This document shows positions 4,982 through 22,507 of a stretch of 64,000 nt of DNA, in pieces (within the stretch, counting starts at the first letter, position 1; each line of letters begins with the position of its first letter). The DNA comes from a virus. The stretch spans positions 69,336 to 133,335 of the IMG/VR virus record IMGVR_UViG_3300001567_000262; one strand, written 5' to 3'. Under the pieces are notes generated by a model. It was given only the letters and a program-made list of their open reading frames with translations. It was not told the origin of the DNA and did no database searches. The translations under genes and the position numbers were made by a program.

Positions 4982-6028
4982 TCAGATCAGTTCATACCAA
5001 GTGCCGCGTCCTGTGCCGCGCCGGCGCAGGTGTCCTGATTCCACCAGCTTTCGAAGATGCACTTTGATGGTATTCCGGTTTGCACCGATGATTTTCTCGG
5101 CGGCAGCGATTGTGACTCGACCGTGCTCGCGGGCTATCTCGACAAGCTGCTCAGACAGCGGCGGCAGCGCGGCGATAAGTTTTTCCCGTTCCACCTTTTT
5201 CCGAAGCATGTTTTTCTGCGCAATCATGCACTCCAGAAAAAACTCCAGCCATTCGTGAAGTTGCGATTCATCCACATCGAGTGTGGACTGCGCCCGCCGC
5301 AGCGCTCTGTAATATCCGTCTTTGTTGTCTTCAATAACTCGTTCGAAAGAACTGTACGGCACATAAGAATAACCGGCCCGGAGCAGCAGTAACGTTGTGA
5401 GCGCGCGGGAAAGCCGCCCGTTGCCGTCCTGGAACGGATGTATCGCGAGAAAACGGACCACGAAGACAGCTATCACAAGCAGCGGGTGCTGTGCGCTGTC
5501 GTCGAGAGCTTCCCCCGCCCATTTCACAAGGGTTTCCATCAGTCGCGGCGTGTCGAAAGGCGATGCGGTCTGAAAAATCACACCCAGGCTTTTTCCATTT
5601 TCATCGAAAGCTTCCACATGGTTCGGCAGCTTTTTGTAGTTGCCCCGGTGACGTTCGTCTTTCTGGGAATGTTTCAGCAGGATGCCGTGGAACTGCTTGA
5701 TCTGGTTTTGCGTCAGCGGAATCGCCCGCCAGGAATCGAAAATCATTTCCATCAATTCCGCATACCCGGCGACCTCCTGCTCGTCGCGCGAACGGAATGA
5801 AAAAACCTGAATCCCAGCCAGAAGCCGTTCGATTTCCGCATCCGTGAGCCTGACGCCCTCTATTCTCGTTGATGATCCGATGGATTCGATAGTGGCGATC
5901 TTTTTAAGCGCCGTCAGCCGGTCGGGCGCAATATTACCCAACGCCTGCCAGCGTCCCTTGAACTCGTCGATCTCGGCAATAAGGCGCAGAATTTTCTGTG
6001 TAATTTTCAGTTTTGCCATGAAATCCAT
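4982..6028 (-). CDS. Fic family protein with internal inhibitory helix and C-terminal winged HTH
   Basis: HPFQDGNGRLSR Fic motif; SSTRIEG autoinhibitory motif; C-terminal NTIKVHLRKLVESG...GRGTWY wHTH. Confidence 0.9.
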   Translation of the reverse strand: MDFMAKLKITQKILRLIAEIDEFKGRWQALGNIAPDRLTALKKIATIESIGSSTRIEGVRLTDAEIERLLAGIQVFSFRSRDEQEVAGYAELMEMIFDSWRAIPLTQNQIKQFHGILLKHSQKDERHRGNYKKLPNHVEAFDENGKSLGVIFQTASPFDTPRLMETLVKWAGEALDDSAQHPLLVIAVFVVRFLAIHPFQDGNGRLSRALTTLLLLRAGYSYVPYSSFERVIEDNKDGYYRALRRAQSTLDVDESQLHEWLEFFLECMIAQKNMLRKKVEREKLIAALPPLSEQLVEIAREHGRVTIAAAEKIIGANRNTIKVHLRKLVESGHLRRRGTGRGTWYELI

Positions 6029-6114
6029 TTTTGCAGCACCCGCTTTATGGCCTGAATATACCCTATATATGGTAATACGTCAATGATATTGGATAATTGT
6101 GGGTGTCGGAGCGG

Positions 6115-6798
6115 TTAATCCGTCAATGGTCCGCTGTAACCGCAGACGCCGGTGCGGGGTGAATTCACGATGGGAAGGAACATATCTTCATCGCATTCAT
6201 GCTTTTCGGCGCAGGTGGCGCACAGACAGCCTTTTCCCTCATAAACACACTCGCTGCAAATCCGCACTGCCGGTTTGCCGCAGACATCGCATGGAATTAC
6301 AGGCGGTTCGTTACGGGCGAGCAGGTGGACACCTTTTCCGGGTGAGGCGCCTGCATAAGCGGAGATGACTTTCAAGACAAGCTGGGTTGTTGTACCAAAG
6401 TCGTAATCGTGAGAAAATTTCATTCCGGGTTCCAGAACTTTGCCGATGGCAACGGCCATGCTGTGGTCGCCCATGGACTTGTCAGGCTGGGAATAATACT
6501 CCATTCCATCGATCTTAAAAACACTCAAATGCCCGCAACACTCGAGCCAGATATCCCGGAGAAATCCGTCGAACGCTTTGAGCGTCGTGGAGGCTGGCAC
6601 GTCAACATGGAGCCAGTACATTGGGCCGCCGTGGGCTTCTACGAGAATGTGGTATATCTCAGACCGTGGCGCCCCCGCGCCGCCGGATTCCGCTGCGCAC
6701 TTTTCACGGACGCATTTTTCAATATGCCTGGTCATCGCGTTTTTCTCGACAACCTCGCCGCACTTTTCACATTTCCCCTGAGACGTTTTTCTTGCCAT
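6115..6798 (-). CDS. pRiA4b ORF-3-like (IS1096 passenger TnpR family) protein with zinc-finger segments
   Basis: DIWLECCGHLSVF and HDYDFGTTT motifs; CxxC pairs at both termini; ends NSPRTGVCGY. Confidence 0.75.
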   Translation of the reverse strand: MARKTSQGKCEKCGEVVEKNAMTRHIEKCVREKCAAESGGAGAPRSEIYHILVEAHGGPMYWLHVDVPASTTLKAFDGFLRDIWLECCGHLSVFKIDGMEYYSQPDKSMGDHSMAVAIGKVLEPGMKFSHDYDFGTTTQLVLKVISAYAGASPGKGVHLLARNEPPVIPCDVCGKPAVRICSECVYEGKGCLCATCAEKHECDEDMFLPIVNSPRTGVCGYSGPLTD

Positions 6799-6839
6799 GA
6801 GCGCCTCCTGATGAGAATTCTTCTTTCTCAGTTACTGAT

Positions 6840-7616
6840 TTAAAAACCCGATATTTCCCACTGTACGGTATCCAGCAATGCCAGTGAATTTTCGTATTCA
6901 ATCCTATTCAGAAATACAAATCTGGTCATGCTTTCATCTATATTGGCCGAGAACATCAGAAAACTGTGAATATGACCTGCAAAAACAAATCGCGGCTTCA
7001 TTCTGCGCACGAGCTGATACAACGGCTCACATCCGAGATTTCTCTTGATTTGGCGATCCAAAACGGAGGGATCGGGCAAAACACTATCCCTTTCAATAAA
7101 GGGAGCCAGGTTTTCGACCGAAGGCCATTCATGGAAAAAGAGCATGTCTATCTCTTTCTCCGATTCAAACGCTTTCAAATCGTTCGAGGTTAAGTGGTTG
7201 TACTTTGCCTTGCCGATCCTGTCGTAATCTTTGGGCGAGTAGTTTCCTGACACCCATCCCATTCGCATGCCGTTCTCTTCGCAAACCCCTGATCTGCCGA
7301 GGTAGTAGAGGTTTCTTATGATCTCACTTTTTCCTTCGTACTCCGACAGCCAACTGTTGTTCTCGTGATTTCCACCAATGAAGTATGTCTTTCTGGGCAC
7401 TTTCTGGTCTGTATAATACTTACAGAAGTCACCCGTCTTCCGATGCCTTGCGGGCACATGTATATTTTTCAAATCTCGTTCGTCTCTTACTGCTTGAAAA
7501 TCGCCAAGTTGAACGACCAGATCGACATTGATGCCTTTTTCCTTCTCAATAAACGACACCCGGTCAAACATACAGTCAAGGCTTCCGTGAATGTCTCCCG
7601 CGATTGCTATGATCAT
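6840..7616 (-). CDS. Calcineurin-like metallophosphoesterase resembling RNA lariat debranching enzyme Dbr1
   Basis: GDIHG, GDFQAVRDERDL..VPARHR..GDF..YY, GGNHE, YYLGRSGV, HEWP, FAGHIH follow the Dbr1 motif order; likely start ATG 7616 (ORF open from 7769). Confidence 0.8.
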   Translation of the reverse strand: MIIAIAGDIHGSLDCMFDRVSFIEKEKGINVDLVVQLGDFQAVRDERDLKNIHVPARHRKTGDFCKYYTDQKVPRKTYFIGGNHENNSWLSEYEGKSEIIRNLYYLGRSGVCEENGMRMGWVSGNYSPKDYDRIGKAKYNHLTSNDLKAFESEKEIDMLFFHEWPSVENLAPFIERDSVLPDPSVLDRQIKRNLGCEPLYQLVRRMKPRFVFAGHIHSFLMFSANIDESMTRFVFLNRIEYENSLALLDTVQWEISGF

Positions 7617-7792
7617 GTGATTTATTCCACGGCAATTATCGCATCGAGGTTGCAGTATCTGGTCTTGTAGCTTTTGCCGGCGGCAGTTGTTTCCAAAATG
7701 GAAATAACTGAATCCTTTAAATGAAAGGTTGAACCCCTGTGGCCAATAAAACAGCTTTTCCAACACCACGCATTAGTTCCCCTACACGTTCC

Positions 7793-9847
7793 TTACCCCA
7801 TGCCCATCGCCATGATGGCAGCCTTGGTGGGGCTGTCGTAGAACTGCCATTGGATGGCGGTGAGGACTGAATCGGGGACTTCCGCGAGGTCCCGCTTATT
7901 CTCGCTCGGAATGAGAATGCGTTTCGCTCCGGATTCCACGGCCAACTGCATGCGCTCAGGCATGGCATTCACCTTTAGTAGCATGCCCTGAACACTCATC
8001 TCACCGAGCACTACGGTTCTATCCTGAACCGGTTTCGCAAGAATCGCGGAAACTATCGAAACGAAAAAAGCCACCGCCGTTTCAGCGCCTTCCTTGGCTT
8101 GGTTCAGGTTGATGGCCTGGATGGAAAAATCATATCCTTTCAAATCACGGTCAATCCCCAGATTCTTTATATTCGCCTTCAGGTATGCGTCAGCGGTTTT
8201 GATGGCCTCTTTCATTTTACTGGAGAGATTTCCGAGCGGAATTATTCGCCCCGAACCAGGATTCATCTGTGCCTGTAATAAAAACAAAGCGAGCCGATTA
8301 TCACTCATGTCTGTACCTATCGTATAAACGCTGCCCGGCGCGAGATTCCCTTCAGTGATCAGAGTGCCGCCGCCCATTTCCGGGAGCGTCACAAATGTCT
8401 CCTGTCCGGTCTCCTTGTGAGTGTATGAGAAGTTTGTATCCCAATACTCGATCCCGCCCATTTTCTTAAGCTGCTCTTTTACCCGCCTGCGCATCTCCAT
8501 CGCAATTGCGATGTATTCTTCCATTTCTTCGTCCGTAACTTCACCATCCGGATGGAGCAACTTTATCAGTCCGGATACGATCTTTCTTACGGCTTTCTGG
8601 TCGCGGCCACCGAGATGATTCCCGAATCTGAAATGCCGCTCCGCATAATCTGCATAGCTGTTTTTTCTTATTTCTCGGAACACTTCGGCAATGTAGTCTG
8701 TGACGACGCCGAAATGATTAGTGTACATTTCATCGCGGGTTTTCTGGAACTCCCAGCCGGGAACATAAGAATGAATGCGGTCGTAGAAAGCCGTGTCCAT
8801 TTCTTTCGGCATGGGATAGAAAAGGTTCGATGTGCGCACAATGGTCTCAATATCCCCATCAATGTTACCCACAAAGACAATCGAACCTTCCGCGGTTATG
8901 ATGTCCTTGCCGCGGCTGAATGTGCCGTCCTCCATGTATCCTTTCATGATGTTGATGCCGCTTTTATCAGAAAAACCGATGCCCGCCGCTTCGTCGAAAG
9001 CGACAACATCCCAAAGACAAACCAAGCCCCTTTGCCCGGAAGACAAATTCACGAACATCTGGGCAGTTGTTGTCTGCCCTCCGGAAACCAAATGGCAGTA
9101 TGGACTCATCTGCTGGTACACAAAGCTTTTCCCCGTCCCGCGCGGGCCTAGTTCCACCATGTTGAAGTTTTTCTCGACAAAAGGAATCAGTCTTAACATG
9201 CAGTGCAGTTTGCGGCGTTTTGTGTAATAGGGATGGTTCGGTTCGTATCCCATCGAGCGCATCATAAGGTCCAGCCACTGGTCTCGGGTGAACTTTTTTC
9301 TTCCTTCAATGAACTTCTCAATATTCCGGCTCGAAAGTTGAATCGGCCTGATGCTTTCGACAAAAAACGGACGGTTCTGTCCTTTGAAAATAAATGTCTC
9401 GTCATATTTCAGAACGACTTCCGCCCAAATCCCACCCATCAGCAGGCGGTCATGATTCTTTATTTCGCTTTCGTCTATGTTAATATAATCGAGATTCAGA
9501 TTGGACAGATTCGCCCAGTATTTATCATGCGTTTCGACGAGCTTCACGGATATTTTATCTATGATTTCATAAGTAGTATGCTGCTTGATTGCCGACTTGA
9601 TTGCCTCTCGCTCATCGGGTTTCACATATTTGCTCGCCAGCGTCTCCCTAACGAACTCCAGCCCCTCGTTGATCGTGTCGTCATCGGTCGAGGCGCAATA
9701 TTTCCCCAACAGAAATTCAATCACGAACGCCGGGACTCCGAAAGAGCTCCGCATCCTTCGCAGAAGGTCTTTCCGAACGACGAGGCCGGGAAAAACCTCA
9801 GTCGCAAGATGGTCCAAGTCGTCCAGAACTATTGGTTGATCTGTCAT
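7793..9847 (-). CDS. brxL: BREX BrxL (MCM-like AAA+ ATPase with Lon-like C-terminal domain)
   Basis: VELGPRGTGKS Walker A, VAFDE Walker B, TAFYDRIH, Lon-like GEMSV...ILIPSENKRDL; position after pglZ. Confidence 0.92.
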   Translation of the reverse strand: MTDQPIVLDDLDHLATEVFPGLVVRKDLLRRMRSSFGVPAFVIEFLLGKYCASTDDDTINEGLEFVRETLASKYVKPDEREAIKSAIKQHTTYEIIDKISVKLVETHDKYWANLSNLNLDYINIDESEIKNHDRLLMGGIWAEVVLKYDETFIFKGQNRPFFVESIRPIQLSSRNIEKFIEGRKKFTRDQWLDLMMRSMGYEPNHPYYTKRRKLHCMLRLIPFVEKNFNMVELGPRGTGKSFVYQQMSPYCHLVSGGQTTTAQMFVNLSSGQRGLVCLWDVVAFDEAAGIGFSDKSGINIMKGYMEDGTFSRGKDIITAEGSIVFVGNIDGDIETIVRTSNLFYPMPKEMDTAFYDRIHSYVPGWEFQKTRDEMYTNHFGVVTDYIAEVFREIRKNSYADYAERHFRFGNHLGGRDQKAVRKIVSGLIKLLHPDGEVTDEEMEEYIAIAMEMRRRVKEQLKKMGGIEYWDTNFSYTHKETGQETFVTLPEMGGGTLITEGNLAPGSVYTIGTDMSDNRLALFLLQAQMNPGSGRIIPLGNLSSKMKEAIKTADAYLKANIKNLGIDRDLKGYDFSIQAINLNQAKEGAETAVAFFVSIVSAILAKPVQDRTVVLGEMSVQGMLLKVNAMPERMQLAVESGAKRILIPSENKRDLAEVPDSVLTAIQWQFYDSPTKAAIMAMGMG

Positions 9848-9862
9848 ATAATCGCCTCCCGG

Positions 9863-12436
9863 TTACATTTCTCTTCCAACCGTTAATTTAATACCACCGG
9901 GTGGAAACTGCTCCGATGTTTCAATATCACGTATCTCCAATTCCAGCAGTTCGCCCTTTTTGAATGATAAAGCTGTATGAAAGAAAAGAGTCACGTTTAT
10001 TTCATTATCCTGAGCTTCGAGGCGCGCCTCTTTCGGCCCGCTGGCAAGTACAGATGATTTTTCTCCCGATTCGCCGGTGCGCAATATGTCAATTGCCAGC
10101 ATCCGTCCGGTCTCCACAAAAAGTGCCATCTGCCCCGCGCCGACTGACGATTTCGGCCTGAGCGTAACCTTTGCGGATGTCCGCATCAGTTCGAATGCCG
10201 GCAGCACCACTTCCACTCCGATGCGTTTTTCAAAAGTCTGTATTTTTGAAATCAGATGCGGGATGATAATCTCCTGAAGCGCGGCGCCACCGTGAGAGAA
10301 CGACTTTTCCGTTTTGAAAAACGACAGGCCCGGGGGAACCGCAATCCACACTTTCTCGTCCCACCGGCACGGGAAGGAAACAAGCGGCACATCCGCCCCG
10401 GCGGGAATCAGCGCGAACCTTTCCTTCAGAACATGACACCATTCCTTTTTACACTCGACTTCGGGAGGCAGCTTTTCCTCGTCCAGAAGAATGAACCCAT
10501 GGTCCGTTATCAAATGAACTTCCGGGTAACCCCACTGGTGCAATTTGTGAATCAGTAGAACCAGTCGTTTCACCTCAAGGCCGACATGGCGAACCAGATT
10601 GTCCGCGCTGCCGTGCCCGATATTGTCCAGTTCCTCATGCCCGAACACTACGAGAAGGTCTTTTATACCAGATGGTTTCGCAGCCGTGTTCTCTAGGTCT
10701 TCAATATCCCGGCAGTCCGCTCCAAATTCAGTCAATAATGATTTTCTGTTTTCAACTGCTGATGTGTCTTTTCCCTTCAACTTCGGATGAATGCTGTTGT
10801 TTTTTATTTCCAAGGACACGGCTGCTCCCTTCTGCGGGAGTAGCGCCGTCATCCCAACGGGCGTAACCGTAGGCAACGCGGCTTGCAATGCTTCGATCTC
10901 GACATCCTGTCCGAGCAGCATTTCCTTTATTGCATGAGCGCAGTCGTAACGGAGAGCGTCTACGATAACGACGGCCCGCTTCCCTCCAGCCGTCCAGATT
11001 TTCTCCTCAAGCCGGTCGGTGACATAAGGAATGCCCTCGATATCAGGAGTAGCCTGTCCAGAAAATCTTTCAAAGAATCGCTGGTTCAGCAGATTCACAT
11101 AAGACGCATAAGCGCGGTCGGCGACCTTGCTTATCGTCGGCATCGAACGCTCCATGGCTTCGAATCGCAATTTAAGATGCTGCTTGTCCACGAGGGGAGC
11201 CTGTTGTATATACAATAAGGCAAACTCAGCGGCGGTATTTCTTTTTTCGATTTCACTCTCTGCTTTTCCGCAAACCTCAATAAAGCAATCCAGCGCGCCA
11301 AGGAGCGACCAAGCGCCAATGGGCGCATTGCTCGCTTTGCTGAATTCCGCTTCCCGGGCTATCCGTTCCCGATTACGCGCAAAAAATTCCTTCAGAGCGG
11401 ATATCTTGTCGGCGGCTTCATTGAACGCATCCAGCGTTTTTTGCCAGCGGAGCGATACCAGATGCGGCAGCCCGAAAGAAACGCCATGTTTATCCGCCGC
11501 CCATGCCGAAAGATTGATGTTCGGCTCAACCTCTCTTATCCATCTGTCCCAAGCGGGCCTGCTGTTTGAATCCCTTAGCCACCGCTGGAGCAGTTGGATG
11601 TGATGATCGCGCAGTGCCTGCGCTGGGAGCCGGTTGAGAAATGGGTAATCGGCGGGTTCTCCATATCCGATGTAAGTTTCTGTAAGCGCCATAATTTCCA
11701 CGATGCCGCGAATCCATGCCGCTGGGTCGCCGCCCGCCGCGCCATATCCGTATCGTTCCCGTACCATATCGAGGAATTCACCAGACAGGGCTTTTTCATC
11801 AAGTGATTGCCACGTCATCTCCGGTGAAACTGCCATGTCCAGAATCGTCTGATCCATGTCACCGACGAGACGCGACTGCGCCAGTTCTGGCGTCAGTACG
11901 GCGCTCCAGAAATCTTGCGGTCTTTCAATAAACTTTGCCGTATATTTTGCCAGAATGGCATCCGCGCCGCCGTCGGCGAGTTTTCGTTGGTCCGATTGAT
12001 TTTCCGGCAGGTTCACACCGGCGAGGCGCAGGAATTTGAAAAGCGTCGGCTTCTTGCCGTCTATGCGCCACGTCGTGCCGCAGTATTTGTATTCCTCGAG
12101 CAGTTCCAGATGATGTGCGCCGTTCTCATCAGGCGAGTCGAGACGTTCTTCGGAGAGCGGCATATAAAAAACATAGCGGCGTTTTTTTCGTTGTTTTTCA
12201 GAAAGCTGTGCAAGATCGGCAAACACAGAGTGCTTGAGCCAAATCTGGCCCCGCTGTTGTTCCGGGTCGTATTCAAGGAGAATGAAAGGAGGCGACTTCA
12301 TCTCGAAAAGGCATTTTCTCAATGCAGGCAAAAGCCGCGCGAATTCTTTTTTCTCATCAAACCACAGGCACACTTGCGCTCGTTTCTCATATTGGAATCG
12401 CTGGGTGAATTGGCCGATGAGCGCTTCGAGAATCAT
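9863..12436 (-). CDS. pglZ: BREX PglZ alkaline-phosphatase-fold protein
   Basis: VIVDALRYD, LPTVTPVGMTALLP, ITDHGF, FSHGG..LQEIIIP motifs. Confidence 0.92.
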   Translation of the reverse strand: MILEALIGQFTQRFQYEKRAQVCLWFDEKKEFARLLPALRKCLFEMKSPPFILLEYDPEQQRGQIWLKHSVFADLAQLSEKQRKKRRYVFYMPLSEERLDSPDENGAHHLELLEEYKYCGTTWRIDGKKPTLFKFLRLAGVNLPENQSDQRKLADGGADAILAKYTAKFIERPQDFWSAVLTPELAQSRLVGDMDQTILDMAVSPEMTWQSLDEKALSGEFLDMVRERYGYGAAGGDPAAWIRGIVEIMALTETYIGYGEPADYPFLNRLPAQALRDHHIQLLQRWLRDSNSRPAWDRWIREVEPNINLSAWAADKHGVSFGLPHLVSLRWQKTLDAFNEAADKISALKEFFARNRERIAREAEFSKASNAPIGAWSLLGALDCFIEVCGKAESEIEKRNTAAEFALLYIQQAPLVDKQHLKLRFEAMERSMPTISKVADRAYASYVNLLNQRFFERFSGQATPDIEGIPYVTDRLEEKIWTAGGKRAVVIVDALRYDCAHAIKEMLLGQDVEIEALQAALPTVTPVGMTALLPQKGAAVSLEIKNNSIHPKLKGKDTSAVENRKSLLTEFGADCRDIEDLENTAAKPSGIKDLLVVFGHEELDNIGHGSADNLVRHVGLEVKRLVLLIHKLHQWGYPEVHLITDHGFILLDEEKLPPEVECKKEWCHVLKERFALIPAGADVPLVSFPCRWDEKVWIAVPPGLSFFKTEKSFSHGGAALQEIIIPHLISKIQTFEKRIGVEVVLPAFELMRTSAKVTLRPKSSVGAGQMALFVETGRMLAIDILRTGESGEKSSVLASGPKEARLEAQDNEINVTLFFHTALSFKKGELLELEIRDIETSEQFPPGGIKLTVGREM

Positions 12437-14329
12437 TCATACCACCTTTGCGATGCGAAGCACTCCGGCCTTCTGGAGAGGTTCGATGTTCACTTTGACG
12501 CCGTCGTTGATGTCGGGGTCCCAGCCTTTGGGTCGTTCCTTCGGCGATTTCCAAGGCGTCAGGATGCGGAAATCTTTGTCCCCGCCTTCCTTGCCCTCGC
12601 GGCGGCCTTCCTGTACCGCTTCGAGCAATCGGTCGAGTTCTTGTGTCTCTTCGAGCCTTGCCTGCCAATCAATGCGGTCCGCCTCCCTGTTTTCTTTTGC
12701 CGCCATCGCGGCCTCGCGCCGCATCAAATCAATCGCGTCCCGCAGATAGCTGCCCCGCAACTTCGCGAGTCGGTTTGCATCGAACTTGTGATAGTGAACC
12801 AGCGCCCCGAACGCCGCTTCGCCTTTGTTCTGCCTGCTCGCGATGTGCCATATTATCGGGCGATTCTTGTATAAAGAAGCGTGATATTCGAAATACACTT
12901 CTTCCAGCCATTGCCGGATGCTCTCCACGGATTTGTATCCCTTTACCCTGTTCTTGAGTTCATTGACGATCTCGATTTCAACCTGATTTATGTCGCGTCC
13001 GAGAAACAGTAACGCAAGTTCTTTATGAACTCGGTCTATCAGTGCGGTTTCGCCGGATACTGCCATGAACGGCACGATGCCGTCTTCGTCTTCATCTACC
13101 ACGCGCTTGACGATATACGATAACAGCCGCCACACGTGTTCCATGCGTTTCTGTTCCGCACTCTTTCCTTCCATCTGCGGCCAGATCAGTTCCGGCGGCT
13201 GCGTTCCCATGATCTCTTCGATCTCTGCTCGCTTTTTGTCCGGGATGCCATACAGATGATACGCATCATCGTTCAGTTCAGCATAAAGTTTCTGAATTCT
13301 TAAATCCTCGGCGCTCTCTAACTCTAAGAGCTTATCGAGTCTTTCCGGTATACACATTCCACTTTCAATAATGCTCTCTCTCAGTATCCAAGTCTTATCA
13401 AAATGTGTCGAGATTTCGTTTCCGTTATCCCAAGCGGATTTTGCGTCGAAGATAAGTTTTGCTCTATTCTCAATACTCTCTCGTTTGTTTGCTGAGGGTT
13501 TCGGAATAGGAACTTTTTTTATCATTCCAACTTCGTATTTACCAAATGTTGAAAAGAAGCCCAGCATGAAAAGAAAAATATGGCTCGAAAAAATCCCGAG
13601 CAAAAAGAATTGATCTGATTCGTTCAATGGGAAAAATGAGTGCCCTACATGTCCATGAATCCCGGTTCCGGGCAGTATTCTTGGGCTAAAACCTCGTTGT
13701 GAGCGGTATGACCAAGTCAGTCCAGGTTTGAAATAATGTTCAAGACTTGGCAAAGCATTTCCTGAAGCTTTTAGAGCATCTCTATTCTCTGGTCGCCAAT
13801 CAATTACCAAATCAATATCTGAGTAAAACCTACAAAACTCTCCACCTTTTGCGAATGAAACCCAACCTGTATTTTGCACAACTTCCCAATACTGTCTTAC
13901 CCATTTCGGATCGTCTCCTGTCGCTTTTCCCTGTCTCGCAAAACCCCAAGTTGGATCAGAAGCGGGATGTTCTCTAAAAATGTGTGATACAAGTGCAATA
14001 CGACGATAAGAGAGTGGCGATCCTTCTATTGATAAGAAGTCGCGGCGTGCTACATCGAAACGTACTTTTTCTGCGTCATTTCTTATAGCTTGTACAAACA
14101 TATTATTACGACGATCAGATTGTTTTTTTGCTGGTTTATAGCGTTCCACATCGAAGAAAGCAGCCTTCTCGCCCTCCGTAACAACATAATATGCCCGCTC
14201 GGCCTGTTCCGGTGTTGTTTCGATGCCCTCTCGTGCCTGTGTAGCCTGAATGGTGGAAACCATAAGTTTCCGTCGCAGGTCAGGATCGGCAAGGATAGCT
14301 TTTATGTTGACTCTTTTATTCTTCGCCAA
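12437..14329 (-). CDS. pglX: PglX C-terminal half (target recognition and C-terminal domains) with N-terminal VbhA/FicA-like antitoxin helix
   Basis: FLSIEGSPLSY, FAKGGEFCRFY...VIDW, YFKPGLTWS, LYKNRPIIW, DINDGVKVNI are PglX C-half signatures; first ~50 aa contain TQAREG; TTG start 1 nt after the Fic stop. Confidence 0.8.
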   Translation of the reverse strand: MAKNKRVNIKAILADPDLRRKLMVSTIQATQAREGIETTPEQAERAYYVVTEGEKAAFFDVERYKPAKKQSDRRNNMFVQAIRNDAEKVRFDVARRDFLSIEGSPLSYRRIALVSHIFREHPASDPTWGFARQGKATGDDPKWVRQYWEVVQNTGWVSFAKGGEFCRFYSDIDLVIDWRPENRDALKASGNALPSLEHYFKPGLTWSYRSQRGFSPRILPGTGIHGHVGHSFFPLNESDQFFLLGIFSSHIFLFMLGFFSTFGKYEVGMIKKVPIPKPSANKRESIENRAKLIFDAKSAWDNGNEISTHFDKTWILRESIIESGMCIPERLDKLLELESAEDLRIQKLYAELNDDAYHLYGIPDKKRAEIEEIMGTQPPELIWPQMEGKSAEQKRMEHVWRLLSYIVKRVVDEDEDGIVPFMAVSGETALIDRVHKELALLFLGRDINQVEIEIVNELKNRVKGYKSVESIRQWLEEVYFEYHASLYKNRPIIWHIASRQNKGEAAFGALVHYHKFDANRLAKLRGSYLRDAIDLMRREAAMAAKENREADRIDWQARLEETQELDRLLEAVQEGRREGKEGGDKDFRILTPWKSPKERPKGWDPDINDGVKVNIEPLQKAGVLRIAKVV

Positions 14330-14330
14330 G

Positions 14331-15185
14331 TTAAGATGTCTCCCAGCTTTCGATAGCTTCTTCTTCCCATGTTCTGATGAACGCGGCGAGCGGCGCGTAG
14401 TCTTTGTGGATGCGTCCTCTTTCGCAAGCTTCGTAATACGCCTCTTCGTCTCGTCGGCGATTGTACTGATTCAGCGGCAACAGATCATTCTGCATGAGCA
14501 GCAGATTGCAGATAATGAACGCCGCCCGGCCATTGCCCTCGCGGAACGGATGGATGGCTATGAATTCGTTCATTGCCTCGCTCACATAGTCATACAGTGC
14601 GCCATCATCATCTGAAATAAAAGGTGAGCGCGAAAGAACATTCGCTTCGTATTCCTCCATCAACGGTTGGATGCCACAGGAAGGAAGCGGCCATTTTGTC
14701 GGACCGTCGCCTTTATGCAGGTCCACCGTGCGCCATCCTCCGGCAAATGGATAAATGAACCCCATTAGTTCGTGGTGTATCTGTCGGATGAGTTCTAATG
14801 TCAGTGGAGCCGGATCGGGTTTGTCGAGCAGATTTTCAACAAACTCCATCGCACGACGGACGCCCTCATCCTCTCGGCGATTTATCTCCTCGCGGTCGAG
14901 ACACCCGGCATAATTGAGGCACAAGCCATCTCCGGTCTGAATCCATTCCCAGCTTCTTGCGTAGTTGTTCCACGGATTAACGACGATGGCGGGCGATTTC
15001 TGCTCGGGGAACAGACCACACAGTTCATCGAGACGCTTTTTTTCAAGTTTGCGCTGGGCAGGCGGGACCACATAGAACGATCCGGGTGCGGCGGCCTGAT
15101 AGAACTCCTGCGCGTTGCGTCCCTTTCCGCTCTGGAAGCGGAAACCGTAGTCCTTTTCCTCCCACCGCCAGCGAATGCCGCTCAT
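14331..15185 (-). CDS. Fic/Doc family toxin inserted within pglX
   Basis: HPFREGNGRAAF motif, IRQIHHELM..IYPFAGGWR; no internal S/GxxxEG inhibitory motif seen; GGAGG SD and ATGA overlap with upstream pglX-N stop. Confidence 0.85.
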   Translation of the reverse strand: MSGIRWRWEEKDYGFRFQSGKGRNAQEFYQAAAPGSFYVVPPAQRKLEKKRLDELCGLFPEQKSPAIVVNPWNNYARSWEWIQTGDGLCLNYAGCLDREEINRREDEGVRRAMEFVENLLDKPDPAPLTLELIRQIHHELMGFIYPFAGGWRTVDLHKGDGPTKWPLPSCGIQPLMEEYEANVLSRSPFISDDDGALYDYVSEAMNEFIAIHPFREGNGRAAFIICNLLLMQNDLLPLNQYNRRRDEEAYYEACERGRIHKDYAPLAAFIRTWEEEAIESWETS

Positions 15186-17269
15186 ATCGTGCCTCCCTTG
15201 AGGACGATTGCGGCTGTTTCAACGGTTGCGCCGTCCAATATGCCGAAACCGAGATCGAGCATGACCAGAAGCGGGTTGCGCTTGAGCAGTATTTCAGTTC
15301 GAAGCTTCTCGAACGTGGTTAGCGTGACGAAAGTTGATGACACCAGAGCTCCGACATAACCGTATGGTTCTATAAGTTGTGTGGCGCGATCTATGAAGGC
15401 GGCATAAATGTCGTTATATGAAAGCGGATATAATTTCCTGATCAGTTCTCTTATCTTCGGCACGAAGCTGCCGTAAGGAGGATTCATGACGATTGCGTCG
15501 AAGCGATGAGAGAGGATGTCGAGGAGTTTGAGACCACGAGCGGTGTCTTCGTAAAAAAGGCGACTCGCCGGGTCTTTGCCGTTCGTGGTCGCGGCATTTT
15601 CCACGGCTGCTAACAATTCATTCTTCAATTCCTCTGCTTCCTGTTGCATCAGCCTGCGCTCGAGGACAAGCTGCTCGGCGACGGCGCGGTCGCCCTCTGC
15701 GACGATGGATTCAAGGTCAAGCTGTTTCAGTTTTCTTTCATCGAACAGCTTTGTCATTCCCTTTGCGCGGCCTCGCTCCTCGATCCAGTCGTCGAGTACA
15801 CGGGACACGCTCTCCGAGACTTGGACGAGTGCGCCGAGTTCTCCAGTGTACTGAAGGTTTTCCCAGAGCGTTTTAATGAGTCGTTCCTGAAGCTTCGAAT
15901 CGCCGAATTTTTTATTGAGATTTTCGATTAGGTGCGTGAGTTGTTCCTGCCCGAGGTCAACTGTATTCGCAACAACGAGGTTAGTGCGACGAACATGGAC
16001 ATCTTCAGGTGAAAAGCCGTGCTGGCGGGCCGATTCCTTTGCCGTCAGCAGCAGAGACAGAGTGGCGATTTGGATAGCACGGGGGTCTATGTCTATTCCA
16101 AATATATTGTTTTCGATAATTGCGGCCGGGATATCCTTTTTATTTTTCACGGACGGCTCGCTGGGCCAGCCTTCTTTTCCGGCGTTCTCGATTTCATCGA
16201 GGTACATTTGGTAAAACAATCCGAACGCGTATTGCCCGAAGTGCATAGTTCCGCATGCGGGATCAAGGAGAGCTATATCTCGCGCGAGTTTGAATGTTTC
16301 GATCCGGCCTTCCTCGGTGACACGCTGGTATCGGATTTTCTCGCCGGTACGCGGAACAAGATAGTCGGCAACGGGCTCGTCCGATACGCGTTCATCCGGT
16401 AGCGGTGGTGGACCTTGCGGCTTCAGAGATGAATCAGGATGCATCTGGAGCCAGAGACGGCCGAGAGTATTGTCCACCAGCGTTTTCACGACCCAAGACG
16501 GAGTATAGAACTGGTTGATAACGGAAAGCTCATAGGAACTCCGAGGGGTACCCTTGTTTTCATCGCGCACTTTCTTTTTCTCGTCGCGATTGAAAAACTG
16601 ATAGACCCAGCCAAGAAAATCAACAGCCTTGAAAGCGTCTTCCGGCAACTCGCTGTTGAGCAAGCCGATGACTTTCACAAGGCAGGCATGGGTCGGCCAG
16701 ACGCAGGCATATTCATGTTCGGGGTCGAAAAGGATGCGAATTTCCGTTGTGATATGGCGGAATGCGGCGGTGAGCGCATCTCGCAGGAGCGATTCTTCGG
16801 CGTCCTGTTCGTACTTGTATCGTTCGCCACCGGCTTCCCTGAAATCGCGCAGATATCGGGAACGCGCCTGATCTGATATCGGAGTGATTATTTCCGTCAG
16901 TTCACTTTCCGCGCCCGATTTCCCCGGCGTTGGGAGAAAAAGCAATTTGCGCGCTTCCATGCTTTTGAGTCCTACGAGGCGATTCAGCAGAGTGTATGTG
17001 AGTTCGCGGATAACATTGTCCCACCCGCGCTGTGGGGTGCCTTCCGCGAGAGTGTCGCGGTTAAGCAGAGCTTCCACGCGCTCCCGCACGGCTTTGTCTG
17101 CATCGGACAGAGGCATTTTATCGAGCGGCTGATGTTTCCCGTCCGGTCGCAGACCAAGGCGCCTTAGCTGCGCGGTGAAATCCGTCTCAAGTTCCTTGCG
17201 GAGCTTGGGAACCCAGGACTTGACCGCTTCCTTGTGAGTATCTGAAAGTGATTTACGTTCGATATTCAC
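15182..17269 (-). CDS. pglX: PglX N-terminal half (N6-adenine methyltransferase catalytic domain)
   Basis: QFYTPSWVV, LDPACGTMHF (motif I), FGIDID, VMNPPYG (motif IV), DIYAAFIDR; ends ETAAIVLK. Confidence 0.9.
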   Translation of the reverse strand: MNIERKSLSDTHKEAVKSWVPKLRKELETDFTAQLRRLGLRPDGKHQPLDKMPLSDADKAVRERVEALLNRDTLAEGTPQRGWDNVIRELTYTLLNRLVGLKSMEARKLLFLPTPGKSGAESELTEIITPISDQARSRYLRDFREAGGERYKYEQDAEESLLRDALTAAFRHITTEIRILFDPEHEYACVWPTHACLVKVIGLLNSELPEDAFKAVDFLGWVYQFFNRDEKKKVRDENKGTPRSSYELSVINQFYTPSWVVKTLVDNTLGRLWLQMHPDSSLKPQGPPPLPDERVSDEPVADYLVPRTGEKIRYQRVTEEGRIETFKLARDIALLDPACGTMHFGQYAFGLFYQMYLDEIENAGKEGWPSEPSVKNKKDIPAAIIENNIFGIDIDPRAIQIATLSLLLTAKESARQHGFSPEDVHVRRTNLVVANTVDLGQEQLTHLIENLNKKFGDSKLQERLIKTLWENLQYTGELGALVQVSESVSRVLDDWIEERGRAKGMTKLFDERKLKQLDLESIVAEGDRAVAEQLVLERRLMQQEAEELKNELLAAVENAATTNGKDPASRLFYEDTARGLKLLDILSHRFDAIVMNPPYGSFVPKIRELIRKLYPLSYNDIYAAFIDRATQLIEPYGYVGALVSSTFVTLTTFEKLRTEILLKRNPLLVMLDLGFGILDGATVETAAIVLKGGTI

Positions 17270-20200
17270 TTAATTACCACCGTGAATCCTTTTCGAATTC
17301 TCGTTTTGAGCTGCTCGCCGATGACGGAGAGTGTCTGATCCACATCGGCTTCGGTTTTCAGCCGTTTTCCCGCAAGTTCCTGAGACGGCTGCCAGTCGCA
17401 AACTTTTTCTGCTTCACCTGTCTTCGTGGGAGCGGCAAGGCCGATCAGTTCGGTTTCGACCTGGCCGCGATAACCGGGCAAAGCCATCAGAGTCTGGGCA
17501 AGAGAAGTCAGGCTACTCTTTGCGGCGGCAGCGAGAAGCGTTTCCGCTGAACTTAGAGGAATTTCCGGATAGTTGCACGGCCCGCCGGGACCGAAGACCT
17601 TTTCAAGGACGGCATCGCGGCTTTCAGCGGGGGCATTTTTGTAGGCACTCCCACCTTTTATCGTATTTATAAGATTTTCAATCTCGGTCTGCACCTTTTT
17701 GTATGCATCTTTGTAAGCGCCCCGGTAAGCGCCAAGCGCAGTTTCGTACGCGGCCCTGTAATCCGGCCAGCGATCAACAACCGATTTGTCACCGATGATC
17801 GCATCCATATCCTTCAGCGCCTGTCCGAGTCTCGTGCTTTCGGGATTGTCGGCGGGAATCGGATGATTTGCGGCAAGATTTGCGAGTTTGCGGGATGCGA
17901 AATAAGCCTGATGCCGGTTGTCGTCAAGGAAGGCGCGAATCGCGGACATGGCCTTCTGGAAGCTCTTCCATTCCGCGGCTCTCGACAGGAAGGCCGTCAC
18001 CGCTTTTGTCGGGTCTTTGATCGTTACAGGTTCATCGAGCGCGGCGCCTGCATCCAATACGATGTCAGAAATGGGAATTCCCATTTCCGCTCTGCTTTTT
18101 GCATCCTGTAGGTCAGATTTTAGTTTTTCACCGAGTTTTCTTACGGCGGATGCGATTGCATTGCCGGACTCCGGGATGCCGTTCATTCCCAAGGCGATGA
18201 GTTCCTTGCTTGCCAGCTTAATCTGCTCCACGGAGAGACTGATTTCGGCCAGTCGGAACGTGACTTTCTTGAAAGTGTTTATTTTCTGGAAGTTGTCGTT
18301 CGTGCCTTTGTAATCGTAAACAGGGGTCGGCCCACCCGGAGATTGCTGCTCCATATAAACCGCACCGGCCCTGAAACAGGCAGCGAGCACAATACGAAGA
18401 ATTTCATCCGGCCAGCCGAACGGCGCGCGGGAAAAACCTTTGAATCCCTTACGGTCATTTGCATCCATGAGCGCGACGCCGGTGGGATCAATGTCTTCGT
18501 CTTCGAGGTCTTTCAGAACTTCGAGCACCTGAGCTACCAAATCTGACTGCTGCTGTAGATTTCCCTGAGAATCAAACAATCCCAGATCTGGCGCGACCTT
18601 ATCGAGCGCGGTTGTCGCAGGGTTGAGAATGGCTTTGATGCTTTTATCAAAGTCATAAGATTTATCGGCAATGCTGAACCGAGGATAAACATTTGGAATA
18701 ACCGAAGTTAGCGCGGTTTGAACAGGCTCCTTGAAATCGGTGGCTCTTTCTAATTCATTTTCCAAGCCGCCGTAGTAAACCGTTCCTTTAAGAAATGCCT
18801 GTTCCAAATCCTTAACAAGCGATGTTTTCAGATCATCCCGTTCCTTGCGTTTTTCAGCAAGCGCATCCTGCGTGGATTTCGAAGTATCCTCTGTGAATCG
18901 CTTATCTCCACACACTTTCACGAGGGCTTCATATCGTTTGAATCTCAGTTCGAGATTATCGGGGACATCGGCAACCCACCATACCTTGCGCCCCTTAGCG
19001 CTGTCGGCCTGATTGCGCCGTTTGATTTCTTCGATCTCCTGTTTTCTGCCGGACATGAGCGGGCTGACGAAACAAACTTCGATTTCAGACCCGGTTTCAA
19101 TTGCCTCGCCATCGAGATAAACACCATAGGAAAATGGAACTTTCGTTATGCCGTATGGAACCGTGAAATTCAGAAGTTTTTTCTTCGTTGTCAGTTCCAT
19201 CTTGGTGATTTCCTGAGATGTTCTGCGGACGGCAGCGATACTGATGCTCTTCGAACCACCGGAACGAACCATTTCCTGAATATACTGCTCGATAGTGCGC
19301 TCCTGTTCGTCCAGGTATTTCCATTCTCCGGTTGCTTCGTCGCGAGCTACATAACCCGCTTCCTGAAGCTTGCCCAATGTCTTTTCCACATTCTCTCGTA
19401 ATTGCGGGATATCCGTTTTGAAATCGGTCACAAGCAACTTTGCAATCGTTTCGGAGATTCTTGGGACCCATGGAACCCGCTGTAACAACCATAGCACTTT
19501 CAGCACTTTCGCCGGGTCAATCGGAGTTCCGGTCACGCGCTCATCAGATTCCCGAATAGACCGTACACCCGCGGCGCCGAGATATTCTTGGGACAAAAGA
19601 TCATTTTCAACAGCGTCGAATATCATGTCGAAGCTCACAACGGCGCCCACTTCGGAGTCTGCGATTTCCTGCAAGGATGTCATGACGACGGAAATCATGG
19701 AGCGCACACCGCCGGACAGCCGGAAGCCGGACAATGCTTCGAAGATATCCTGAGAAAGCCGTATCTGGTGCGGCAGAAGCGGATAGCAATCGATGAACGC
19801 CCGTTCATCCACAGTGCCGAGAAATCTGCTTGCTTTCAGATCAGCAAGCTGTGAAATATATCCTTCATTGTCCAGATACAACTTTTTTAATTGCGGCTCT
19901 TGCGCCGGATATTTTTTTAGAATCCTCTCCGATACAACTTTATTGATTTCATCCGAAATGAGATGAGGCTTTAGTTCGAATCTCGCATTAAGGCGTCCGA
20001 TAAGAGCCGGTTGGAAGTTTGTCCTGTCGACGACTTTTTCCAAGTCCTGCTGGCTGGTTACAAATAGCCAGACTTTACCTTTCCCTTTGTTTCCTATCAT
20101 TTCCGCGATACTGTTTAGCTCGCTGATTTTCTCGTTCGAGTCGCCGATAAATGTTCCCATTTCGTCGATTACGAAAATCAAGTGCTGAACTTTTCCGCCG

Positions 20201-21000: not shown

Positions 21001-21035
21001 TTATAGACCCTCCTGACAGCTTGTAATACGAGAGT

Positions 21036-21575: not shown

Positions 21576-21577
21576 GA

Positions 21578-22360: not shown

Positions 22361-22507
22361 TTCTTTTTCTATTCCCATTGGCCCCAATGGGGATGTCGTT
22401 GAAAGGATTTTATTACAGTCAAAGGCGGTTAACCCCATATCGTTTTTGACATCCCCGTCATGTTTTCCTTTTCGAACTCTTTTCACTGCTCAAACAACAG
22501 TTGTCGA

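What the first reader, a model, noticed from the sequence alone, without database searches (positions are those of the whole stretch)
6840..7616. Dbr1 (RNA lariat debranching enzyme)-like phosphoesterase appended to the BREX operon
Seen: GDFQAVRDERDLKNIHVPARHRKTGDFCKYY, then FIGGNHE, NLYYLGRSGV, HEWP and FAGHIH, directly downstream of brxL on the same strand; the gene looks AT-richer than brxL. Established: eukaryotic Dbr1 has the same motif series (GDFQAVRN..DL..M.VP.KYR) and cleaves 2'-5' phosphodiester bonds, including retron msDNA branches. Two differences: the first metal ligand is Asp (GDIHG) rather than the Cys of Dbr1, and the segment matching the lariat-recognition loop looks shorter. 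Inference: it may act on 2'-5' linkages (msDNA, group II intron lariats, 2'-5' or 2'3' cyclic oligonucleotide signals) as a BREX accessory or an independent defence effector.
Basis: partly seen in the sequence, partly recalled or inferred. Interest (0 to 1): 0.74.

Follow-up and report, generated by a model that had tools for sequence, protein, structure and literature searches.

The report
Minimal Dbr1-like phosphodiesterase beside BREX
A small bacterial gene next to a BREX phage-defence operon really is a stripped-down relative of Dbr1, the eukaryotic enzyme that cuts 2'-5' RNA branches, but it looks like a rare, independently mobile single gene rather than a BREX part, and what it cuts is unknown.

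Summary
Window 6840-7616 (-) encodes a 258-aa metallophosphoesterase with every quoted motif, 176 nt after brxL on the same strand, at 44.7% GC against 49.2% for brxL.

The Dbr1 relationship holds. The only solved structures matched by sequence are Dbr1 (E 1e-26) and CWF19L1. The AlphaFold model (pLDDT 94) matches Dbr1 at Z 28.5, against 19 or less for other phosphoesterases.

Three Dbr1 hallmarks are missing:
- Asp replaces the invariant Cys.
- The lariat-recognition loop is about 11 residues shorter.
- The C-terminal domain is absent.

The protein belongs to a small prokaryotic clade, mostly DPANN archaea. Many members carry a fused or adjacent 3-TPR tail that this copy lacks.

The BREX link is not supported. 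BrxL has thousands of ~85%-identical homologues, but this subclade has four proteins. The nearest BREX relative carries an HNH-like gene in the same slot. DNA similarity to the two other bacterial copies is confined to the ORF, which is low-GC in all three hosts.

The best reading is a horizontally acquired single-gene phosphodiesterase sitting as island cargo. 2'-5' specificity is plausible but untested.

This scan has already noted prokaryotic Dbr1-like genes in at least 14 other genomes.

The parts
6840..7616 (-). Dbr1-clade metallophosphoesterase gene, 258 aa. It has the minimal core only, with no Dbr1 C-terminal domain and no TPR tail.
   Evidence: Translation. Pfam Metallophos only. PDB phmmer hits Dbr1 at E 1e-26. 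AF2 model pLDDT 94.4. Foldseek and VIA top hits are Dbr1.
7587..7595 (-). Motif I, GD8-I-H10-G. Asp8 occupies the position of Dbr1's invariant Cys14. His10 corresponds to Dbr1 His16.
   Evidence: Alignment to EhDbr1. Asp in all 22 clade members against Cys in 113 eukaryotic-type relatives.
7365..7370 (-). Motif III, Asn83-His84 of GGNHE. These are the metal ligand and the general acid, equivalent to Dbr1 Asn90 and His91.
   Evidence: Invariant in the clade alignment A1. Aligned to EhDbr1.
7188..7238 (-). Shortened equivalent of the Dbr1 lariat-recognition loop, residues 127-143 (SPKDYDRIGKAKYNHLT). The part that contacts the C-terminal domain in Dbr1 (Eh residues 141-146) is deleted.
   Evidence: The HMMER alignment has gaps of 4 and 7 residues. 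The segment is 35 residues against a eukaryotic median of 46. Loop definition from PMC4176325.
6966..6974 (-). Motif GH215-I-H217, metal ligands equivalent to Dbr1 His230 and His232.
   Evidence: Invariant in A1. Alignment.
7617..7792 (-). 176-nt spacer between the brxL stop and the Dbr1-like start, 44% GC. The scan found no sigma-70-like promoter and no terminator-like site on the minus strand.
   Evidence: Sequence. Scan. GC.
7793..22486 (-). BREX type 1 operon: brxA, brxB, brxC, pglX N-half, Fic, pglX C-half, pglZ, brxL. It is the neighbour, not shown to be a functional partner.
   Evidence: Pfam and NCBIfam.
6115..6798 (-). Downstream 227-aa Cys-rich protein with a weak PRiA4_ORF3-like match. 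It starts 41 nt after the Dbr1-like stop with a strong AGGAGG ribosome-binding site and has 53.8% GC. It is not found next to any homologue.
4982..6028 (-). SoFic-type Fic protein, a known defence-associated gene, on the same strand further downstream.
   Evidence: PADLOC SoFic E 3e-49. Pfam Fic.

Best explanation
The gene encodes an intact two-metal phosphodiesterase of the Dbr1 lineage, reduced to its catalytic core. All seven metal-binding and catalytic residues are present.

It differs from eukaryotic Dbr1 in three ways:
- It has the canonical Asp in place of Dbr1's zinc-binding Cys.
- Its lariat-recognition loop is about 11 residues shorter.
- It has neither the Dbr1 C-terminal domain nor the TPR tail carried by most of its closest relatives.

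It belongs to a small prokaryotic clade centred on DPANN archaea. In bacteria it is a rare, low-GC, single-ORF unit that has landed in different accessory regions. Here it sits in the variable cargo slot just 3' of a BREX-1 operon, inside a recombinase-bounded defence island.

Shown: the family placement, the intact active site, the missing Dbr1-specific parts, the rarity, and the single-gene mobility.

Inferred: it acts on its own, not as a BREX subunit, and hydrolyses a phosphodiester in a nucleic-acid or nucleotide substrate. The likeliest single substrate class, at roughly one in three, is a 2'-5' linkage: retron msDNA, DGR RNA-cDNA branches, group II lariats or 2'-5'-linked signals. The reason is that it keeps the Dbr1-specific GDFQ..R..DL..VP.(K/R)(H/Y)RK.GDF..YY segment, which in Dbr1 forms the branch-point nucleotide pocket. 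The confidence given is for the shown part plus 'independent cargo, not a BREX component'.
For: Family placement:
- The only PDB sequence hits are Dbr1 (E 1e-26, residues 3-250) and CWF19L1.
- The AF2 model has pLDDT 94.4 and pTM 0.92.
- Foldseek ranks nine Dbr1 entries first (E ~1e-20, TMq 0.81), then CWF19L1, then a gap to LpxH, Rv0805, GpdQ and Mre11 at E ~1e-7.
- VIA-align gives Z 28.5 (243 aligned, rmsd 2.5) for Dbr1, 23.6 for CWF19L1 and 19 or less for the rest.

Active site: D8, H10, D39, N83, H84, H162, H215 and H217 are invariant in 21 clade members.

Pocket residues: Dbr1 Gln47 corresponds to Gln41, His16 to His10, and Tyr64 to His58, which is His or Tyr across the clade.

Rarity and clade structure:
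- The exhaustive phmmer search finds about 8 clusters at 50% identity with E <= 1e-57, then a gap to eukaryotic Dbr1 at 1e-34.
- The tree supports the clade at 99* and the four-member bacterial subclade at 100*.

Independence from BREX:
- About 8000 BrxL candidates were scored, and the 120 best listed are all about 85% identical to the window's BrxL, against four proteins in this subclade.
- The closest BREX relative (L088/L089) has the same split-pglX-Fic layout but an HNH_2-like gene after brxL.
- Homologues P0003 and P0004 lie elsewhere.
- blastn similarity of the window to those loci is confined to the ORF.
- The gene's GC is about 45% in all three hosts, against 50-56% in the flanks.

Island context: BREX, SoFic, a TOTE primase-helicase, serine recombinases and an integrase surround it in the window. 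In L001 and L086 it lies 1-1.4 kb from a full-length PDC-S01 candidate-defence ATPase.
Against: No function has been measured.

In E. histolytica Dbr1, removing the C-terminal domain, removing the recognition loop, or changing Cys14 each abolishes debranching in vivo (PMC4176325). A protein lacking all three may therefore not debranch lariats at all.

No terminator or promoter was detected in the 176-nt spacer, so co-transcription with BREX cannot be excluded.

The two non-BREX bacterial loci are related to each other (their AAA_14 genes are 98% identical), so they count as about one independent context.

The DPANN members and the wider bacterial relatives show no defence context. Their neighbours include TruB, TGT and the CCA-adding enzyme, or uvrC.
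Confidence: 0.62

Rival explanations
1. BREX accessory. The enzyme is a functional add-on of this BREX-1 system, co-transcribed with brxL. It would process a nucleic-acid intermediate or a phage product for BREX.
For: It is on the same strand, directly after brxL, with no detectable terminator in the 176-nt spacer. The slot after brxL holds accessory-looking genes in a relative as well (HNH_2-like).
Against: There are thousands of BrxL homologues at about 85% identity but only four proteins in this subclade. The nearest BREX relative lacks it. The nearest homologues are not beside BREX. Homology ends at the ORF borders. The 176-nt gap contrasts with the 0-36-nt gaps or overlaps inside the operon.
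Confidence: 0.08
2. Generic phosphodiesterase or phosphatase. Despite its Dbr1 ancestry, the minimal core has no 2'-5' preference. It would act as an ordinary 3'-5' nuclease, a cyclic-nucleotide phosphodiesterase or a phosphatase, in defence or in housekeeping.
For: It has the canonical Asp of ordinary metallophosphoesterases instead of the Dbr1 Cys. It lacks the two elements, the full recognition loop and the C-terminal domain, that Dbr1 needs for lariat recognition. Relatives in cyanobacteria sit next to uvrC. DPANN copies sit among tRNA-modification genes.
Against: It retains the Dbr1-specific segment that forms the branch-point pocket (Gln41, Arg44, an aromatic residue at 58). Its similarity to Dbr1 is much higher than to any nuclease or cyclic-nucleotide phosphodiesterase of known structure.
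Confidence: 0.3
3. Counter-defence or inter-element weapon. The mobile element or prophage carries it to destroy 2'-5'-linked molecules of rival systems, such as retron msDNA or 2'-5' cyclic-oligonucleotide signals.
For: The source record is classed as a provirus, and the island adjoins phage structural genes. Eukaryotic DBR1 does debranch retron RT-DNA (PMC8989520). There is a weak hit to a phage metallophosphoesterase family, phrog_1649, at E 1.6e-15.
Against: No relative was found in the IMG/VR viral contigs. The gene lies among defence genes, separated from the phage structural module by an integrase and recombinases. The close homologues lie on contigs whose called genes show no phage hallmarks.
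Confidence: 0.1
4. Two-gene module with the downstream Cys-rich PRiA4_ORF3-like gene (6115-6798). That gene would stand in for the TPR partner that accompanies the enzyme in archaea.
For: The gap is 41 nt, the strand is the same, and the downstream gene has a strong ribosome-binding site. Most clade members have a fused or adjacent partner domain.
Against: The downstream gene is unrelated to the TPR partner and to the genes downstream of the other bacterial copies. Its GC is 53.8% against 44.7%. No co-occurrence was seen elsewhere.
Confidence: 0.08

Closest known systems
Dbr1, the eukaryotic RNA lariat debranching enzyme (E. histolytica structures 4PEF-4PEI, 5K71-5K78, 5UKI; Pfam PF00149 + PF05011)
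   Same: It shares the metallophosphoesterase core, with about 30% identity over about 245 residues, Z 28.5 and rmsd 2.5. All metal and catalytic residues match. So does the Dbr1-specific GDFQ..R..DL..VP..(Y/H)(R/K).GDF..YY segment, which includes the equivalents of Gln47, His16 and Tyr64.
   Different: Asp replaces the invariant Cys14. The recognition loop is about 11 residues shorter and lacks the tip that contacts the C-terminal domain. Arg158 is not conserved in the HMMER alignment. There is no C-terminal domain (PF05011). The host is prokaryotic, and the gene is a rare accessory gene rather than a universal one.
CWF19L1 (Drn1) N-terminal metallophosphoesterase domain, the Dbr1 partner in the intron-lariat spliceosome (8RO1, 8RO2)
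   Same: It is the second-best match by sequence (E 5e-7) and by structure (Z 23.6 and 21.9).
   Different: The window protein has no CwfJ C-terminal domains. The match is clearly weaker than to Dbr1.
DPANN-centred 'Dbr1-like + TPR' clade (P0008, P0009, P0014-P0017, P0035-P0037; loci L002, L005-L007, L087)
   Same: The window protein is a member of this clade (41-49% identity, clade support 99*). It has the same Asp-type motif I, the same short loop and the same invariant residues.
   Different: Those proteins carry a fused tail of about 150 aa, or an adjacent gene of 167-168 aa. In the modelled member P0009 the tail folds as a 3-TPR module (Z ~15 to designed TPR proteins). The window copy and its three bacterial sisters (70-78% identical) have lost it.
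Wider bacterial Dbr1-like metallophosphoesterases (Myxococcota, Cyanobacteriota, Acidobacteriota, Planctomycetota; 260-300 aa)
   Same: These are also stand-alone, Asp-type and without a C-terminal domain. They are 27-34% identical to the window protein.
   Different: They form a separate clade. They keep a eukaryote-length loop (median 45 residues). They have no conserved neighbours, apart from uvrC in some cyanobacteria.
PADLOC PDC-S10, an unpublished single-gene phage-defence candidate (a metallophosphoesterase model)
   Same: It is the only PADLOC model hit (E 1.6e-11, 42 bits).
   Different: The match is partial and low-scoring. Eukaryotic Dbr1 and an unrelated Microbacterium phosphoesterase also hit it at 19-24 bits. 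This is superfamily-level similarity, not membership. PDC-x systems are unvalidated candidates (PMC11811056).

Membership tests
Calcineurin-like metallophosphoesterase superfamily (PF00149) | Motifs GDxHG, GDxxDR-like GD, GNH(D/E), H, GHxH, with all metal ligands | tested here: met
   Pfam PF00149 at E 2.3e-11, above the cut-off. D8, H10, D39, N83, H84, H162, H215 and H217 are invariant in A1.
Dbr1 (RNA lariat debranching enzyme) | Closest sequence and fold relative among all metallophosphoesterases | tested here: met
   PDB phmmer returns only Dbr1 (E 1e-26) and CWF19L1. Foldseek E is 1e-20 against 1e-7 for the next family. VIA Z is 28.5 against 19 or less.
Dbr1 (RNA lariat debranching enzyme) | Invariant alpha-pocket cysteine (Eh Cys14) in place of the superfamily Asp | tested here: not met
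   The window protein has Asp8. Of the 237 relatives with a full-length catalytic domain, 114 have Asp at this position, including all 22 clade members and the short prokaryotic forms, and 113 have Cys, the long eukaryotic-type forms. The definition is from PMC4176325 and PMC9202583.
Dbr1 (RNA lariat debranching enzyme) | 28-residue lariat-recognition loop (Eh 130-158) with invariant Arg158 | tested here: not met
   A loop is present, but two gaps remove 11 residues (Eh 138-141 and 143-149), which takes out most of the 141-146 tip that contacts the C-terminal domain. Arg158 aligns to Asn140. The segment is 35 residues against a eukaryotic median of 46.
Dbr1 (RNA lariat debranching enzyme) | Dbr1 C-terminal domain (PF05011), required for activity in vivo | tested here: not met
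   The protein ends 41 residues after GHIH. There is no PF05011 hit in it or in any clade member, whereas a eukaryotic-type relative, P0040, does hit PF05011. Long clade members carry a TPR-like tail instead, modelled as a 3-TPR module in P0009.
Dbr1 (RNA lariat debranching enzyme) | Branch-point adenine pocket (His16/Tyr64 stack, Gln47) | tested here: inconclusive
   The alignment gives His10, His58 and Gln41. Position 58 is His or Tyr, and position 41 is Gln or His, across the clade. The other constraining residues are not conserved: Lys59, Asp205 and Met231 align to His53, Ile190 and Ile216.
Dbr1 (RNA lariat debranching enzyme) | Selective hydrolysis of 2'-5' phosphodiester branches | not testable with these tools
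   This needs enzymology.
BREX type 1 (component or conserved accessory) | Recurrent co-occurrence with BREX genes across genomes | tested here: not met
   Only this locus pairs the two. The closest BREX relative has an HNH_2-like gene instead. The homologues P0003 and P0004 lie elsewhere. The family is rare while BrxL is abundant.
PADLOC PDC-S10 candidate defence gene | Full-length, family-level match to the model | tested here: not met
   The score is 42 bits in two partial stretches. Eukaryotic Dbr1 and a generic metallophosphoesterase also match, at 19-24 bits.

The most novel reading that the evidence does not exclude
This clade, and perhaps the wider Asp-type prokaryotic Dbr1-like family, is a true prokaryotic 2'-5' debranching enzyme. 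Published work treats that activity as eukaryote-only. Its substrates would be the branched products of prokaryotic retroelements: retron msDNA, DGR RNA-cDNA or group II lariats. In mobile islands like this one it would be carried as a single-gene weapon or safeguard that dismantles such molecules, either to defend against retroelement-bearing invaders or to disarm retron-type immunity.
Probability: 0.18. Interest if true: 0.8.

Novelty: new variant of a known kind. Interest (0 to 1): 0.5.

Why it matters
Published work describes Dbr1 as the only enzyme known to hydrolyse the 2'-5' bond of lariats and treats it as eukaryotic (PMC9202583, PMC10470207, PMC12238851).

Prokaryotes make at least three kinds of 2'-5' branched nucleic acid:
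- retron msDNA
- DGR RNA-cDNA (PMC6182149)
- group II intron lariats

As far as I know, no dedicated prokaryotic debranching enzyme has been described; the papers read here name only Dbr1, and only in eukaryotes.

A compact 258-aa Dbr1-type core that moves between genomes and lands in defence islands is a direct, cheap candidate to test. If it is active on 2'-5' bonds, it would show which parts of Dbr1 are dispensable. It would also give a small debranching tool for retron and DGR work, and add an enzyme class to phage-defence or counter-defence biology. If it is not active on them, it marks how the Dbr1 scaffold was used before eukaryotes specialised it.

For BREX itself the finding is of little consequence, because the gene is cargo in a variable slot.

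Tried and rejected
- **Conserved partner.** The genes downstream of the three bacterial copies are unrelated to each other and to the archaeal TPR partner. Clustering about 410 neighbours of 68 relatives found only small synteny groups: uvrC in 5 cyanobacteria and an FGE-sulfatase-like gene in 5 myxobacteria. My ORF calling failed for 19 high-GC loci, so this survey is incomplete.
- **Local source of 2'-5' bonds.** No reverse transcriptase (PF00078) or SMODS cyclase (PF18144) was found in the 133-kb record. The record is a fragment, so this shows little.
- **Link to reverse transcriptases in DPANN.** 4 of 6 carrier genomes have an RT, against 39 of 149 sampled non-carriers. One-sided Fisher p is 0.05, or 0.18 if only core-clade carriers are counted. 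The sample is too small and the carriers are not independent, so this is inconclusive.
- **Phage origin.** No relative was found in IMG/VR contigs. There is only a generic PHROG metallophosphoesterase hit.
- **Plasmid match.** There was no megablast match for 4500-10000 in PLSDB.
- **Expression.** No RNA holder was listed among the public runs.
- **TPR tail as a Dbr1 C-terminal-domain substitute.** In the 411-aa model the tail aligns to TPR proteins, and the Dbr1 alignment stops at residue 264. The model's pTM of 0.64 leaves the domain packing uncertain.
- **Deep phylogeny.** The order of eukaryotic Dbr1, the window clade and the wider bacterial group is unresolved (SH-aLRT 30, quick tree, midpoint root). 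No claim is made about the origin of Dbr1.
- **Host identity.** This was not determined. The source is a hydrocarbon or toluene enrichment metagenome.
- **Literature.** Searches found no paper on a prokaryotic Dbr1 homologue. The library is incomplete, so prior description cannot be excluded.
Full report
**What is there.** Window 6840-7616 (-) is a 258-codon gene. The open frame runs upstream to a GTG at 7769. Three things place the start at the ATG at 7616: all homologues start there, the alignment begins there, and DNA similarity to other copies begins exactly there. The gene lies 176 nt downstream of brxL (7793-9847) on the same strand. brxL closes a BREX type 1 operon, brxA-brxB-brxC-pglX(N)-Fic-pglX(C)-pglZ-brxL, at 7793-22486. 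GC is 44.7% against 49.2% for brxL.

**Family placement.** Pfam sees only the generic Metallophos domain, and NCBIfam sees nothing useful. Against all PDB sequences, the only hits are five forms of Entamoeba histolytica Dbr1 (E 1e-26 to 7e-25, residues 3-250 aligned to the whole catalytic domain) and CWF19L1.

An AlphaFold2 model built on 21 clade sequences is confident (pLDDT 94.4, pTM 0.92).
- Foldseek ranks nine Dbr1 entries first (E ~1e-20, TMq 0.81).
- CWF19L1 follows at 1e-14 and 3e-10.
- There is then a gap to LpxH, Rv0805, GpdQ and Mre11 at about 1e-7.
- VIA-align gives Z 28.5 (243 residues, rmsd 2.5, 30% identity) for Dbr1, 23.6 and 21.9 for CWF19L1, and 19 or less for every other phosphoesterase.

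The Dbr1 relationship is real.

**What it lacks.** Montemayor et al. (PMC4176325) define three Dbr1-specific features. Removing any one abolishes debranching in vivo: the invariant Cys14, the 28-residue lariat-recognition loop (130-158, centred on Arg158), and the C-terminal domain (262-354).

- *Cys14.* The window protein has Asp8 at that position. Among 237 full-length relatives the split is clean. Asp occurs in all 22 clade members and in the short prokaryotic forms. Cys occurs in 113 long eukaryotic-type proteins.
- *Recognition loop.* The segment between the SG.Y strand and the HDWP histidine is 35 residues here. The clade median is 37, the eukaryotic Dbr1 median is 46, and the wider bacterial group median is 45. 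The two gaps in the HMMER alignment remove Eh residues 138-141 and 143-149. That takes out most of the 141-146 tip that touches the C-terminal domain in Dbr1. Arg158 aligns to Asn140.
- *C-terminal domain.* The protein ends 41 residues after GHIH and has no PF05011 domain. A eukaryotic-type relative in the same search does hit PF05011.

What it keeps, beyond the seven metal and catalytic residues, is the Dbr1-specific stretch after motif II. This includes the equivalents of Gln47 (Gln41) and of the His16/Tyr64 pair that sandwiches the branch-point adenine (His10 and His58; position 58 is His or Tyr in the clade).

**Relatives.**
- *Its own clade.* An exhaustive phmmer search of 1.84 billion cluster representatives finds a tight group of about eight 50%-identity clusters (E <= 1e-57). 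After a gap come hundreds of eukaryotic Dbr1 proteins, from E 1e-34.
- *TPR tail.* The tight group has 251-273-aa forms and 409-448-aa forms. The extra 150 or so residues of the long forms give TPR-like Pfam matches, not the Dbr1 C-terminal domain. In Nanoarchaeota and other loci the same module is a separate, overlapping gene of 167-168 aa. In the modelled member P0009 the tail folds as a 3-TPR module, Z about 15 to designed TPR proteins.
- *Distribution.* Among 185,579 GTDB species representatives, the pattern scan found close relatives only in three DPANN archaea. Of 151 sampled genomes of that phylum, two carry a match.
- *Bacterial sisters.* The window protein and three bacterial sisters (70-78% identical; P0003-P0005) form a 100*-supported subclade nested in this group, and they have no tail.
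- *Wider bacterial family.* A separate stand-alone, Asp-type family of 260-300 aa (27-34% identity) occurs in Myxococcota, Cyanobacteriota, Acidobacteriota and other phyla.
- *Deep branching.* The order of the three groups is unresolved.

**Is it part of BREX?** The evidence says no.
1. About 8000 BrxL candidates were scored, and the 120 best listed are all about 85% identical to the window's BrxL. The Dbr1-like subclade has four proteins in 5.8 billion clusters.
2. The closest BREX relative (L088/L089, BrxL 85%) has the same unusual pglX-Fic-pglX layout. There, a 294-aa HNH_2-like gene and a Bro-N gene follow brxL. The slot is therefore variable.
3. P0003 and P0004 lie on contigs without BREX.
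4. blastn of the first 32 kb of the window against those contigs matches only the ORF (79% and 76% identity, ending at the start codon).
5. The gene is about 45% GC in all three hosts, against 50-56% around it. That fits recent acquisition of a single-gene unit from a low-GC donor lineage.
6. The 176-nt spacer contrasts with the 0-36-nt gaps or overlaps inside the operon.

No terminator or promoter was detected in the spacer, so read-through transcription from BREX remains possible.

**Context.** Positions 1-32 kb of the window form a mosaic island:
- two large serine recombinases and a ParB/RepB pair
- a SoFic gene (PADLOC E 3e-49)
- the BREX operon
- a TOTE-type primase-helicase with another Fic gene
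- a tyrosine integrase

Prophage structural genes follow. IMG/VR classes the whole record as a provirus.

In L001 and L086 the homologue sits 1-1.4 kb from a full-length PDC-S01 candidate-defence ATPase (563-565 bits). In L086 it is also near a DUF4062 protein with Argonaute-associated-like matches. Those two loci are related to each other (the ATPases are 98% identical), so they count as about one independent observation.

The bacterial subclade is thus always seen in accessory, defence-flavoured regions. The archaeal members are not: their neighbours include TruB, TGT and the CCA-adding enzyme. Neither are the wider bacterial relatives.

The PADLOC hit to PDC-S10 (42 bits) is superfamily-level only. 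Eukaryotic Dbr1 and an unrelated phosphoesterase hit the same model, and PDC-x models are unvalidated candidates (PMC11811056).

**Mechanism.**
- *Shown:* an intact binuclear phosphoesterase active site on a Dbr1-type scaffold.
- *Inferred:* it hydrolyses a phosphodiester in a nucleic acid or nucleotide, and it works alone.

2'-5' specificity is the most interesting possibility. The retained branch-point pocket residues favour it. So does the fact that eukaryotic DBR1 cleaves retron RT-DNA (PMC8989520). Prokaryotes also make further 2'-5' branches, such as DGR RNA-cDNA (PMC6182149). Against it stands the loss of all three elements that Dbr1 needs for lariat recognition.

I put 2'-5' specificity at about one in three, and a generic phosphodiesterase at about the same. 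Tests for a link to reverse transcriptases were inconclusive.

**Novelty and score.** The reviews and papers I could read treat Dbr1 as eukaryotic and as the only known 2'-5' debranching enzyme. I found no paper on prokaryotic homologues. JGI's pipeline already labels one clade member 'lariat debranching enzyme'. This scan has independently flagged prokaryotic Dbr1-like genes in at least 14 other genomes, with similar verdicts.

I class it as a new variant of a known kind: a minimal, Asp-type Dbr1 core without the C-terminal domain, of unknown substrate. As a BREX finding it is ordinary cargo. As a candidate prokaryotic debranching enzyme it is worth a simple biochemical test. Interest: 0.5.

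Noticed in passing
window 12437-17269; L088 and L089 1-3443: pglX is split into an N-half and a C-half with a Fic gene between them. The same Eco57I-half / Fic / 607-628-aa half / PglZ / BrxL order recurs in a relative whose BrxL is 85% identical, on contigs from two different metagenome sources. The split looks like a conserved BREX variant, not a recent disruption.
   Followed up: partly
L088 8073-8957 and 9170-10153: In the related BREX locus the slot after brxL holds a 294-aa HNH_2-like protein 18 nt after brxL, then a Bro-N protein. The 3' end of this BREX type seems to be a cargo slot for variable accessory genes.
   Followed up: partly
window 6115-6798 (-): A 227-aa Cys-rich protein with Zn-ribbon-like CxxC pairs at both ends and a sub-threshold PRiA4_ORF3 match (25 bits). 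It has a strong ribosome-binding site 41 nt after the Dbr1-like gene and no PADLOC or PHROG hit. Its function is unknown.
   Followed up: partly
window 26443-30096 (-): A TOTE-conflict-system archaeo-eukaryotic primase fused to a superfamily-2 helicase (834 aa, AEP-TOTE E 2e-96) lies directly downstream of a third Fic-domain gene (368 aa). The island carries four Fic genes in all.
   Followed up: no
L002 5238-6540; L087 8652-9915; P0008, P0009, P0014-P0016, P0035-P0037: DPANN-centred relatives pair the Dbr1-like core with a TPR-like module, either fused (409-448 aa) or as an overlapping 167-168-aa gene. In the modelled member P0009 it is a 3-TPR fold. This is a gene-fission or gene-fusion series. 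The TPR module suggests a protein partner, which is unknown.
   Followed up: partly
L008-L084 (for example L037 Myxococcus xanthus, L031 Trichodesmium, L059 Sorangium): A separate stand-alone Asp-type Dbr1-like family in Myxococcota and filamentous cyanobacteria keeps a recognition loop of eukaryotic length (about 45-51 residues) but has no C-terminal domain. As far as I recall, these lineages are rich in retrons and group II introns; that was not checked here, and no co-occurrence test was run.
   Followed up: no
L001 3251-4498; L086 2391-3638: A 98%-identical AAA_14/DUF4143 ATPase (PADLOC PDC-S01, 563-565 bits) flanks a rearranged variable region. That region holds the Dbr1-like gene in two related genomes, so it behaves like a hotspot.
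   Followed up: partly
window 35923-40557 (+) and 41653-45222 (+): The prophage part encodes a 1544-aa Mu-F-like head protein with weak HipA_C and Rho_N matches, and a 1189-aa protein with a D12 adenine methyltransferase domain. Both are unusually large fusions.
   Followed up: no
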